20,458 nt of DNA from a virus. Taxonomy: Duplodnaviria > Heunggongvirae > Uroviricota > Caudoviricetes. Location: IMG/VR virus record IMGVR_UViG_2925914267_000005, positions 1-20,458 of that record. One strand, 5' to 3'. Below the pieces are notes generated by a model. The model was given only the letters and a program-made list of their open reading frames with translations. It ran no database searches and was not told the DNA's origin. The translations under genes were made by a program, and so were the position numbers. Positions 17,696 to 19,128 of this stretch are shown here, in pieces (within the stretch, counting starts at the first letter, position 1; each line of letters starts with the position of its first letter).

Positions 17696-17718
17696 AAGGA
17701 GCTTCGGCTCCTTTTTTG
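17696..17718 (+). terminator. Strong intrinsic terminator (7-bp stem aaggagc/gctcctt, UUCG tetraloop, T6)
   Basis: Read directly; lies between the AntA-like gene and xis. Confidence 0.7.
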
Positions 17719-17773
17719 TTGGAGAAAATCAACCACTGCTCGCTCCCTTGCGAGTAATTGCGGAGACTTTGCG

Positions 17774-17992
17774 ATGTACTTGACACTTCAGGAGTGGAAC
17801 GCACGCCAGCGACGCCCAAGAAGCCTTGAAACAGTTCGTCGATGGGTACGCGAGTGCAGGATATTCCCTCCTCCGGTTAAGGATGGAAGAGAGTATCTGT
17901 TCCACGAATCAGCGGTAAAGGTTGACTTAAATCGACCAGTAACAGGTAGCCTTTTGAAGAGGATCAGAAATGGGAAGAAGGCGAAGTCATGA
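17774..17992 (+). CDS. xis: Lambda excisionase
   Basis: 72-aa ORF MYLTLQEWNARQRRPRSLETVRRWVRECRIFPPPVKDGREYLFHESAVKVDLNRPVTGSLLKRIRNGKKAKS identical to recalled lambda Xis; overlaps int start. Confidence 0.95.
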   Translation: MYLTLQEWNARQRRPRSLETVRRWVRECRIFPPPVKDGREYLFHESAVKVDLNRPVTGSLLKRIRNGKKAKS

Positions 17993-19040
17993 GCGCCGGG
18001 ATTTACCCCCTAACCTTTATATAAGAAACAATGGATATTACTGCTACAGGGACCCAAGGACGGGTAAAGAGTTTGGATTAGGCAGAGACAGGAGGATAGC
18101 AATTACTGAAGCAATACAGGCAAACATTGAGTTATTTTCAGGACACAAACACAAGCCTCTGACATCGAGAATCAACAGTGATAATTCTGTTACGTTACAT
18201 TCATGGCTTGATCGCTACGAAAAAATACTCGCCAGCAGAGGAATCAAGCAGAAGACACTCATAAATTACATGAGCAAAATTAAAGCAATAAGGAGGGGTC
18301 TGCCTGATGCTCCACTTGAAGACATCACCACAAAAGAAATTGCGACAATGCTCAATGGATACATAGACGAGGGCAAGGCGGCGTCAGCCAAGTTAATCAG
18401 ATCAACACTGAGCGATGCATTCCGAGAGGCGATAGCTGAAGGCCATATAACAATAAACCCTGTCGCTGCCACTCGCGCAGCAAAATCAGAGGTAAGGAGA
18501 TCAAGACTTACGGCTGACGAATACCTGAAAATTTATCAAGCAGCAGAATCATCACCATGTTGGCTCAGACTTGCAATGGAACTGGCTGTTGTTACCGGGC
18601 AGCGAGTTGGTGATTTATGCGAAATGAAGTGGTCTGATATCGTAGATGGATATCTTTATGTCGAGCAAAGCAAAACAGGCGTAAAAATTGCCATCCCTAC
18701 AACATTGCATGTTGATGCTCTCGGGATATCAATGAAGGAAACACTTGATAAATGCAAAGAGATTCTTGGCGGAGAAACCATAATTGCATCTACTCGTCGT
18801 GAACCGCTTTCATCCGGCACTGTATCAAGGTATTTTATGCGCGCACGAAAAGCATCAGGTCTTTCCTTCGAAGGGGATCCGCCTACCTTTCACGAGTTGC
18901 GCAGTTTGTCTGCAAGACTCTATGAGAAGCAGATAAGCGATAAGTTTGCTCAACATCTTCTCGGGCATAAGTCGGACACCATGGCATCACAGTATCGTGA
19001 TGACAGAGGCAGGGAGTGGGACAAAATTGAAATCAAATAA
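17970..19040 (+). CDS. int: Lambda integrase (tyrosine recombinase)
   Basis: 356-aa ORF MGRRRSHERRDLPPNLYIRNNGYYCYRDPRTGKEFGLGRDRRIAITEAIQANIELFSGHKHKPL… near-identical to recalled lambda Int. Confidence 0.97.
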   Translation: MGRRRSHERRDLPPNLYIRNNGYYCYRDPRTGKEFGLGRDRRIAITEAIQANIELFSGHKHKPLTSRINSDNSVTLHSWLDRYEKILASRGIKQKTLINYMSKIKAIRRGLPDAPLEDITTKEIATMLNGYIDEGKAASAKLIRSTLSDAFREAIAEGHITINPVAATRAAKSEVRRSRLTADEYLKIYQAAESSPCWLRLAMELAVVTGQRVGDLCEMKWSDIVDGYLYVEQSKTGVKIAIPTTLHVDALGISMKETLDKCKEILGGETIIASTRREPLSSGTVSRYFMRARKASGLSFEGDPPTFHELRSLSARLYEKQISDKFAQHLLGHKSDTMASQYRDDRGREWDKIEIK

Positions 19041-19128
19041 TGATTTTATTTTGACTGATAGTGACCTGTTCGTTGCAACAAATTGATAAGCAATGCTTTT
19101 TTATAATGCCAACTTAGTATAAAAAAGC
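19041..19128 (-). other. attL: Prophage attL (B-O-P' junction): lambda attP P' arm (19041-19113) and 15-bp core (19114-19128)
   Basis: Reverse complement reads TGAAGCCTGCTTTTTTATACTAAGTTGGCATTATAAAAAAGCATTGCTTATCAATTTGTTGCAACGAACAGGTCACTATCAGTCAAAATAAAATCATTA, matching the lambda core and P' arm as recalled. Confidence 0.9.

What the first reader, a model, noticed from the sequence alone, without database searches (positions are those of the whole stretch)
17696..19128. Complete site-specific recombination module (xis, int, both att sites) retained: the remnant may still excise
Int and Xis are full length and near-identical to lambda, and both attL and attR keep their arm sequences. The element could therefore excise and circularise when int/xis are expressed, although it cannot package. 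A strong terminator at 17696-17718 sits directly upstream of xis, so expression would depend on the internal int promoter or on read-through.
Basis: inference. Interest (0 to 1): 0.45.

Follow-up and report, generated by a model that had tools for sequence, protein, structure and literature searches.

The report
Intact lambda int-xis-att, orphaned regulation
A 19-kb decayed lambda-like prophage sitting in the classical lambda attachment site still has undamaged integrase, excisionase and both attachment sites, but an insertion sequence deleted the promoter and regulators that normally switch them on, so it is an ordinary, probably almost immobile, prophage remnant.

Summary
Xis (17774-17992) and int (17970-19040) are full length. 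Xis is identical to that of phages 434 and HK97. Int differs from lambda Int at 6 of 356 residues, with all catalytic and specificity residues kept. attL (core 19114-19128) has a P' arm identical to lambda. attR lies outside the finding's coordinates (core 91-105). Its P arm has 5 mismatches, none in a consensus binding sequence. A hairpin plus T-run terminator sits at 17695-17714.

A terminator in front of pI/xis is native to lambda, 434, HK97 and the plaque-forming phage PDP110P1, so it is not a sign of decay. The real obstacle is an IS600-mediated deletion (7510-8773, no target duplication). It removed pL, nutL, N, cI, cro, cII, replication, lysis and head genes.

As a result, pI has lost its activator and makes Int only. 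Seven terminator-like sites now lie unopposed upstream of xis. No SOS-responsive repressor remains.

The element is therefore excision-competent in its sites and proteins, but its own excision should be rare and not inducible. A helper phage of lambda att specificity could excise it in trans. The remnant is very young (100% identical to fuller prophages), so its intactness implies no selection. It is a known kind of element and of low interest.

The parts
91..105 (-). attR common core (POB'), exact lambda 15-mer GCTTTTTTATACTAA. The B' arm CAAGTTAGT is at 87-95 and the C core-type site at 99-107.
106..246 (-). attR P arm. H2 region 111-139, Xis/Fis region X1-X2-F 157-197, P2 200-209, H1 region 202-226, P1 231-240. 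Five mismatches to lambda at 110, 227, 229, 241 and 242, all outside the consensus strings and shared with longer related prophages.
252..285 (-). sib / tI hairpin of the b region, identical to lambda. As in any integrated prophage it is separated from int, so it cannot retro-regulate int mRNA here.
   Evidence: (HK97 annotation 'sib retroregulation site')
7510..8773 (+). IS600 (99.8% identical to annotated IS600), with no target-site duplication. It joins tail/baseplate genes directly to the last 28 codons of ral. This deletion junction removed pL, nutL, N, cI, cro, cII, O, P, Q, lysis and head genes.
8846..15959 (+). Remainder of the leftward early operon (cIII, gam, bet, exo, small ORFs), with six terminator-like hairpins on the coding strand at 8846, 8992, 10334, 12209, 12804 and 15938. 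It also carries an IS629-like insertion at 14007-15316 with a 3-bp duplication ACA.
16816..16845 (+). The only good sigma-70-like site on the + strand upstream of xis (TTGACA-18-CATACT). It is the candidate promoter of the ant moron and the only visible source of read-through transcripts into xis.
16936..17025 (+). Rfam sRNA-Xcc1 match in the leader of the ant-like gene.
17066..17689 (+). AntA / P22_AR_C-type anti-repressor-like gene (207 aa), a moron inserted just upstream of pI/xis.
17695..17720 (+). Intrinsic terminator (8-bp stem, UUCG loop, U-run). It occupies the same position as the annotated terminator upstream of pI in 434 and HK97.
17748..17779 (+). pI promoter region with the cII-binding repeat TTGC-N6-TTGC (17748-17761). 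Coordinates are transferred from the 434 annotation. The promoter spans the xis ATG (17774).
17774..17992 (+). xis, 72 aa, identical to Xis of 434, HK97, 2B8 and PDP110P1 (G59S relative to lambda).
17970..19040 (+). int, 356 aa, lambda-type tyrosine integrase, 350/356 identical to lambda Int, catalytic RKHRHY intact.
19037..19113 (-). attL P' arm, identical to lambda. P'3 19037-19046, P'2 19048-19057, P'1 19058-19067, H' region 19068-19098, C' 19110-19118.
19114..19128 (-). attL common core (BOP'). The B arm CTGCTTTTT is at 19122-19130. The ybhC start codon follows at 19175.

Best explanation
This is the standard lambda Int/Xis/attL/attR module at the two ends of a 19-kb, recently truncated lambdoid prophage. 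The prophage sits in the classical attB between ybhB and ybhC.

Mechanistically the module should work exactly as in lambda. Int binds the arm-type sites (P1, P2, P'1-3) and the core-type sites. Xis binds X1-X2 in the P arm of attR. Host IHF and Fis bend the arms. attL x attR recombination would then release a 19-kb non-replicating attP circle and restore attB.

What is broken is control, not machinery. An IS600-mediated deletion removed pL, nutL and N, which supply antiterminated xis-int transcription. It also removed cII, the activator of pI, and the repressor that links induction to SOS.

Xis can now be made only from transcripts that leak through the terminator at 17695-17714, most plausibly from the ant-moron promoter at 16816-16845. 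pI at best gives traces of Int alone. Autonomous excision is therefore expected to be very rare and not SOS-inducible. A superinfecting or co-resident phage of lambda att specificity (lambda, 434, HK97 type) could excise it in trans.

What is shown: sequence intactness, the deletion, and the absence of the regulators. What is inferred: the activity of the proteins, the low level of expression, and helper-driven excision.
For: **Intact proteins and sites.**

**Xis and Int alleles are in circulation.**
- Xis is identical to that of four free phages.
- The exact Int protein is listed in 49 blocks of the public collection.
- In all 10 places shown it lies next to ybhC, in prophages with at least three different early-region architectures: Gam/Bet/Exo, Rad52-like/SSB/Abc2 and RecT/Gp157. 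Most of these still carry a repressor and N. This argues that the allele is active.
- int differs from lambda at 14 synonymous and 6 non-synonymous codons.

**P-arm variants are tolerated.** They are shared with the longer attB-resident relatives L002, L003, L005, L007 and L009. HK97 varies in the same P1 flanks.

**The deletion.**
- Window 1-7510 is 100% identical to L007. Window 8774-14010 and 15317-20458 are 100% identical to L010, which has repressor, N and ral upstream.
- IS600 lacks a target duplication.
- tblastn with N, cI, Cro, cII and O of the relatives finds nothing in the window. Only the last 28 residues of Ral remain.

**Barriers to transcription.** There are seven + strand terminator-like sites between IS600 and xis, and one promoter-like site upstream of ant.

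**The terminator is native.** A terminator upstream of pI is annotated in 434 and HK97, and the identical ant+terminator arrangement occurs in the plaque-forming phage PDP110P1.
Against: - No expression or excision data exist for this element.
- Three Int substitutions (A66S, A126T, T162I) are absent from the five free phages compared, so their neutrality rests on prophage distribution only.
- No viral contig with an attP carrying this exact P-arm variant was found.
- Promoter and terminator calls are consensus scans, and weak or non-canonical promoters could be missed.
- Highly degraded prophages lacking repressor genes, and some lacking an excisionase, have been seen to excise spontaneously in E. 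coli O157 (PMC2669165). 'Rare' could therefore still be PCR-detectable.
Confidence: 0.75

Rival explanations
1. One reading: the remnant still excises on its own at a detectable rate. Xis and Int would come from read-through of the 17695 terminator, for example from the ant-moron promoter, or from IS600/IS629 outward transcription. This would yield a non-replicating circle and cured segregants.
For: - All cis sites and both genes are intact.
- A 10/12 promoter-like site at 16816-16845 lies 850 bp upstream of the terminator, and intrinsic terminators are never 100% efficient.
- In the integrated state sib is unlinked from int, so read-through mRNA is not retro-regulated.
- Defective prophages without repressors excise spontaneously in O157 Sakai (PMC2669165), and rac does so in K-12 (PMC4632033).
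Against: - The same promoter-ant-terminator-xis arrangement exists in intact relatives and in phage PDP110P1. There, constitutive Xis would destabilise lysogeny, so leakage is presumably low.
- Xis is known to be unstable and is needed in stoichiometric amounts (established lambda biology).
- No promoter-like site lies between the terminator and xis other than cII-dependent pI.
Confidence: 0.3
2. The module is dead despite looking intact. The three unusual Int substitutions (A66S, A126T, T162I), or the P-arm changes inside the Int footprints (window 110, 227, 229, 241, 242), would abolish recombination.
For: - Those three substitutions are absent from lambda, 434, HK97, 2B8 and PDP110P1.
- The five P-arm mismatches lie within the 'int 1' and 'int 3' footprints of the lambda record.
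- No attP with this P arm was found in viral contigs.
Against: - The exact Int is found in many otherwise complete-looking, mosaic prophages, all at attB.
- The substitutions are conservative and lie outside the catalytic and specificity residues.
- The consensus decamers and the IHF and Xis strings are exact.
- Functional phages vary much more in the P arm than this element does.
- The P-arm variant is shared by five other attB prophages.
Confidence: 0.07
3. The module is retained by selection, for example as a switch that lets the cell shed or keep the O-acetyltransferase and tail-fibre cargo. On this view it has not simply escaped decay so far.
For: A sister remnant (L018) lost the same central region through a different IS event yet also keeps int and xis; its attR side was not fetched. 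The cargo includes an O-acetyltransferase moron next to attR.
Against: The remnant is 100% identical over 17.9 kb to fuller prophages, so there has been no time for neutral decay and intactness carries no information about selection. The regulators needed for a controlled switch are gone.
Confidence: 0.05

Closest known systems
Bacteriophage lambda site-specific recombination system (Int, Xis, attP/attB, IHF, Fis; pL-N and pI-cII control, sib retroregulation)
   Same: - Same attB locus between ybhB and ybhC.
- Identical 15-bp core and identical P' arm; P arm 180/185 identical.
- Int 98.3% and Xis 98.6% identical.
- pI with its cII repeat and sib are both present.

   Different: - pL, nutL, N, cII and the repressor are deleted.
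- An ant-type moron with its own terminator replaces lambda's sequence upstream of pI; homology to lambda starts at 17747.
- The tail module is myovirus-like rather than lambda-like.
Phages 434, HK97, 2B8 and PDP110P1 (lambda att specificity)
   Same: - Identical Xis, and Int differing at 3-4 residues.
- A terminator just upstream of pI/xis.
- PDP110P1 has the same ant gene, sRNA-Xcc1 element and terminator.

   Different: These are complete, viable phages with their early regulatory regions. Their P arms differ from the window's far more than lambda's does.
Defective prophages known to occupy attB or to excise: the 12.1-kb lambda-B remnant of E. coli B strains; Sp prophages of O157 Sakai; rac of K-12
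   Same: - A degraded lambdoid element occupying an att site.
- In E. coli B the site is the same lambda attB (PMC4395058).
- Excision and circularisation of defective prophages has been demonstrated by PCR (PMC2669165; PMC4632033).
   Different: The gene content and decay route differ (IS600 deletion plus IS629 insertion). I did not compare sequences with lambda-B. No excision data exist for this element.

Membership tests
Lambda-type tyrosine integrase (Int) | Catalytic residues R212, K235, H308, R311, H333 and nucleophile Y342 | tested here: met
   All six are conserved in a gap-free alignment with lambda Int.
Lambda-type tyrosine integrase (Int) | Three-domain architecture: N-terminal arm-binding domain, core-binding domain and catalytic domain | tested here: met
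   The identical protein carries the precomputed Pfam hits PF09003 Arm-DNA-bind_1, PF22022, PF02899 and PF00589. It also matches PHROG integrase families.
Lambda-type tyrosine integrase (Int) | Lambda (not HK022) core specificity residues N99, S282, G283, R287, E319 | tested here: met
   All five are identical to lambda. The list of residues comes from my own knowledge of the lambda/HK022 literature.
Lambda-type tyrosine integrase (Int) | Recombinase activity on its att sites | not testable with these tools
   Indirect evidence only: the exact allele is present in many mosaic prophages, all at attB.
Lambda Xis (excisionase / recombination directionality factor) | A roughly 72-aa protein of the Exc family whose gene overlaps the int start | tested here: met
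   72 aa, matching PHROG excisionase phrog_629. The identical gene in relatives carries PF07825. It is 100% identical to 434 and HK97 Xis. The 23-nt overlap with int follows from the coordinates.
Lambda attL/attR pair | Identical 15-bp common core in direct orientation at both ends, flanked by the attB half-sites B and B' | tested here: met
   Two exact cores on the same strand, against 0.03 expected. The B and B' arms are present.
Lambda attL/attR pair | Arm-type Int sites P1, P2, P'1-3; IHF sites H1, H2, H'; Xis sites X1/X2 and the Fis site | tested here: met
   All site strings are found exactly at the expected positions. The P' arm is 125/125 identical and the P arm has 5 mismatches, all outside these strings. 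The site strings are taken from lambda sequence and from my knowledge of the att map.
Lambda-type regulation of excision | pL promoter, nutL and N antiterminator driving xis-int through terminators | tested here: not met
   Homology to the intact relative L010 starts inside ral, so everything upstream is replaced by IS600. N proteins of three relatives give no tblastn hit.
Lambda-type regulation of excision | cII activator acting on pI | tested here: not met
   The pI cII-binding repeat is present at 17748-17761, but no cII homologue is found in the window.
Lambda-type regulation of excision | SOS-cleavable repressor holding pL off | tested here: not met
   There is no cI/LexA-type (Peptidase_S24) homologue in the window.
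Viable lambdoid prophage | Replication (O/P), lysis, and head and packaging genes | tested here: not met
   The PHROG scan of all major ORFs finds only tail fibre and baseplate genes, IS transposases and early-left genes. There is no O homologue and no lambda cos string.

The most novel reading that the evidence does not exclude
The remnant behaves as a helper-dependent excisable island. Its own Int and Xis are silent, but infection by, or induction of, any phage with lambda att specificity (lambda, 434, HK97 type) supplies them in trans and pops out the 19-kb circle.

This would toggle carriage of the O-acetyltransferase, tail-fibre and Red-recombinase cargo, and would free or re-occupy attB. 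Independent IS-mediated deletions in sister lineages (the window and L018) that spare int and xis would then reflect convergent 'grounding' that keeps this option open.
Probability: 0.15. Interest if true: 0.35.

Novelty: already known. Interest (0 to 1): 0.15.

Why it matters
It matters little beyond annotation. It shows that 'intact int, xis and att' is not enough to predict mobility of a prophage remnant: the regulatory inputs (pL-N, cII, repressor) have to be checked as well.

Three practical consequences follow for anyone working with this strain.
- The lambda attB is occupied, and the attL and attR sites can recombine with incoming lambda-att phages or with attP/Int-based integration vectors.
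- Heat- or SOS-type curing will not remove the element, but plasmid-borne Int and Xis probably will.
- The retained gam-bet-exo genes and the O-acetyltransferase are the parts most likely to affect phenotype.

Tried and rejected
1. **Source genome among complete RefSeq E. coli.** No record covers 80% or more of the window; the best covers 44%. The accession of the sister remnant (CP170291) is not in the collections. The source genome therefore stays unidentified. IS600 and IS629 content suggests a Shigella or EIEC-like background, but this is only an inference.
2. **attP junction in viral contigs.** A scan for an attP junction carrying this element's P-arm variant gave 0 matches. This is uninformative on excision.
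3. **Lineage-specific look-up.** The IS629-truncated 195-aa product was found in one 4-kb contig only, so no sister strains with an empty site could be examined.
4. **The terminator as the block to excision.** Rejected as the main cause, because equivalent terminators are native to lambda, 434, HK97 and PDP110P1.
5. **Inactivating Int mutations.** Rejected.
6. **Outward IS promoters.** The scan shows only IS600's own inward promoter-like site at 7525-7553 and nothing at the IS right ends.
7. **Not run.** Structure prediction and the large protein searches were not used, because the proteins are at least 98% identical to characterised ones.

Full report
**1. What is in the window**

The window runs from just after ybhB to the end of ybhC. 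Window position 1 aligns to the base after the PBP-family gene in related loci. ybhC is at 19175-20458.

Between these genes lies a 19-kb element bounded by two exact, directly oriented copies of the lambda core GCTTTTTTATACTAA, at 91-105 and 19114-19128. Two matches were found against 0.03 expected.

PHROG scans of all major ORFs give this layout:

| Coordinates | Feature |
|---|---|
| 91-285 | attR, with P arm and sib/tI |
| 479-1561 | O-acetyltransferase moron |
| 2175-7424 (minus strand) | myovirus-type tail-fibre and baseplate genes |
| 7510-8773 | IS600 (99.8% to annotated IS600) |
| 8771-8854 | last 28 codons of ral |
| 9034-10002 | gene of unknown function |
| 10027-12148 | cIII, gam, bet, exo |
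| 12139 onward | small early-left ORFs |
| 14007-15316 | IS629-like insertion with a 3-bp duplication ACA, inside a dATP/dGTP-pyrophosphohydrolase/DUF551 gene |
| 16033-16814 | frameshifted anti-repressor-like gene |
| 17066-17689 | AntA-type gene |
| 17695-17714 | terminator |
| 17774-17992 | xis |
| 17970-19040 | int |
| 19037-19128 | attL |

**2. Check of the observation**

*Proteins.* Int is 356 aa and aligns without gaps to lambda Int, with six substitutions (A66S, A126T, T162I, H164P, A245T, I248V). The catalytic residues R212, K235, H308, R311, H333 and Y342 are intact. So are the residues I know to set lambda-versus-HK022 core specificity: N99, S282, G283, R287 and E319. At the DNA level int differs from lambda in 14 synonymous and 6 non-synonymous codons. 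Xis differs from lambda Xis only by G59S. It is identical to the Xis of 434, HK97, 2B8 and PDP110P1, so lambda is the outlier at that position.

*attL.* The P' arm is 125/125 identical to lambda.

*attR.* The P arm has five mismatches in 185 nt, at window 110, 227, 229, 241 and 242. The exact strings for C, H2, X1-X2-F, P2, H1, P1 and the sib/tI hairpin are all present. The five mismatches fall inside the broad Int footprints annotated in the lambda record ('int 1', 'int 3'), but outside the consensus decamer and the core-type nonamer. HK97, a functional phage, varies in the same P1 flanks, and 434, HK97 and PDP110P1 vary far more across the arm. The same P-arm variant occurs in five other, longer prophages at attB: L002, L003, L005, L007 and L009.

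*Terminator.* It is real: an 8-bp stem with a UUCG loop and a U-run, -14.4 kcal/mol in context, z = -2.8.

The one caveat is that attR lies far outside the coordinates given.

**3. Is the Int allele likely to be active?**

Three substitutions (A66S, A126T, T162I) are absent from the five free phages compared. However, the exact 356-aa protein is indexed in 49 blocks of the public collection. In all ten places shown it sits next to ybhC. Those prophages have at least three different early-region architectures: Gam/Bet/Exo, Rad52-like/SSB/Abc2 and RecT/Gp157. Most of them still carry a Peptidase_S24 repressor and an N gene.

An allele spread over mosaic, complete-looking prophages at the correct site is very probably functional. 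This is an inference, not a demonstration.

**4. What actually limits excision**

*The remnant is young.* Its early-left region is 100% identical to locus L010 over window 8774-14010 and 15317-20458. L010 continues upstream with ral, N and a repressor. In the window, that upstream part is replaced by IS600. The tail side (1-7510) is 100% identical to L007.

*The IS600 site is a deletion junction.* IS600 has no target duplication; the flanks are ...ccgt and ggga.... It joins two regions that are far apart in complete relatives, so it marks a deletion rather than a simple insertion.

*The regulators are gone.* tblastn with N (three variants), cI, Cro, cII and O from the relatives finds nothing in the window. 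No lambda cos string is present. The element has therefore lost pL, nutL, N, cII, the repressor, replication, lysis and heads.

*Consequences, from established lambda biology:*
- Xis is made only from pL transcripts that N carries through terminators.
- pI is cII-dependent. In the 434 record the pI promoter (locus 1502-1533) spans the xis ATG (1528), so its transcript starts inside xis and encodes Int only.
- Without a repressor or pL there is nothing for the SOS response to derepress.

*Remaining routes to xis mRNA.* On the + strand between IS600 and xis the scan finds seven terminator-like hairpins, at 8846, 8992, 10334, 12209, 12804, 15938 and 17695. It finds only two promoter-like sites. 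One is IS600's own, at 7525. The other is a 10/12 match at 16816-16845 in front of the ant-type gene. The only visible route is leakage from that promoter through the 17695 terminator.

**5. The terminator is native, not a lesion**

The 434 record annotates a terminator (citing PMID 6305007) immediately upstream of pI, and the HK97 record a putative one at the same place. Lambda and 2B8 show a GC hairpin plus T-run there as well.

Homology of the window to lambda starts at 17747. Upstream of that point the window carries a different module, consisting of a promoter-like site, an sRNA-Xcc1 match, the ant-type gene and the terminator. That module is present with the same terminator in PDP110P1, which forms plaques, and in intact-looking prophages. 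The terminator is thus part of a moron and plays the role of lambda's terminator upstream of pI. It does not prevent excision in a phage that has N.

**6. Mechanism proposed**

If Int and Xis are present together with host IHF and Fis, attL x attR recombination should release a 19-kb attP circle. The circle has no origin and no cos, so it would be lost by dilution, leaving attB restored.

From the element's own genes this should be very rare and not inducible. In trans, from a phage of the same att specificity, it should be efficient. Conversely, incoming lambda-att phages or attP vectors will meet attL and attR instead of attB.

**7. Comparison with what is known**

This is the lambda system itself, in a defective prophage. 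Defective prophages that occupy attB are known: the 12.1-kb lambda-B of E. coli B (PMC4395058). Defective prophages that still excise are documented by attP PCR in O157 Sakai, including elements without repressor genes and elements lacking an excisionase (PMC2669165). The same holds for rac (PMC4632033).

Because of those precedents I give a 0.3 chance that sensitive PCR would detect some spontaneous excision here. Nothing here is new in kind.

**8. Verdict**

The module is complete and almost certainly functional if expressed. The remnant is a regulatory orphan created by an IS600 deletion, and its intactness reflects youth (100% identity to fuller prophages) rather than selection. Interest is low.

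Noticed in passing
window 16816-17720: A self-contained moron sits just upstream of pI/xis. It consists of a promoter-like site (16816-16845), an Rfam sRNA-Xcc1 match (16936-17025, 64.9 bits against a gathering score of 53), an AntA/P22_AR_C-type gene (17066-17689) and the terminator. The sRNA-Xcc1 match co-occurs with the ant gene in PDP110P1, L010 and L013, and is absent from L016, which lacks ant. A direct repeat GAAAATATAGGCGGTCATC / GAAAAATATAGGAGGTCATC (about 16857 and 17047) is also present, the second copy holding the ant ribosome-binding site.
   Followed up: partly
L018 1-2200 (GCA_053164715.1 CP170291.1) versus window 4657-8854: L018 is a sister remnant of the same prophage, 100% identical over window 8774-14010 and 15317-20458. 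It lost the same central region through a different event. An IS629-like element joins baseplate J (window 5256) to a point upstream of an intact ral, and there is no IS629 at 14007. Neither remnant can derive from the other, so these are parallel IS-mediated truncations.
   Followed up: partly
window 479-1561: A 360-aa Acyl_transf_3 O-acetyltransferase moron lies next to attR, transcribed opposite to the tail genes. The exact protein is listed in 212 collection blocks, mostly in prophages at attB. It may modify O-antigen.
   Followed up: no
L006 and L008 9560-9800 versus window 160-300: The same acetyltransferase and tail module sits at a different chromosomal site (next to an Ibs toxin gene). 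Its att P arm keeps lambda-like P2, H1, P1 and sib but has a different core-proximal half and no lambda core. This is a recombination breakpoint inside the P arm, as expected for integrases that share arm-type sites but differ in core specificity.
   Followed up: no
window 14007-15316 and 14342-14458: An IS629-like element with a 3-bp target duplication (ACA) interrupts a dATP/dGTP-pyrophosphohydrolase/DUF551 gene. Rfam finds its ALIL frameshift pseudoknot (116 bits). The truncated 195-aa product is found in only one other public contig (GCA_001912615.1).
   Followed up: partly
window 16033-16814: An anti-repressor-like gene is split into 59-aa and 202-aa ORFs. The same split (59 + 201 aa) is called in L011 and L017, so the frameshift predates the truncation.
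   Followed up: no
window 19041-19175: No terminator lies between int and ybhC, which are on the same strand with 46 bp from the core to the ybhC start codon. Any int transcript would therefore run into ybhC. A weak promoter-like site sits at 19000-19027, inside the 3' end of int.
   Followed up: no
whole window: No complete RefSeq E. coli genome contains this arrangement; best coverage is 44%. IS600 and IS629 content suggests a Shigella or enteroinvasive-type background, but the source was not identified.
   Followed up: partly
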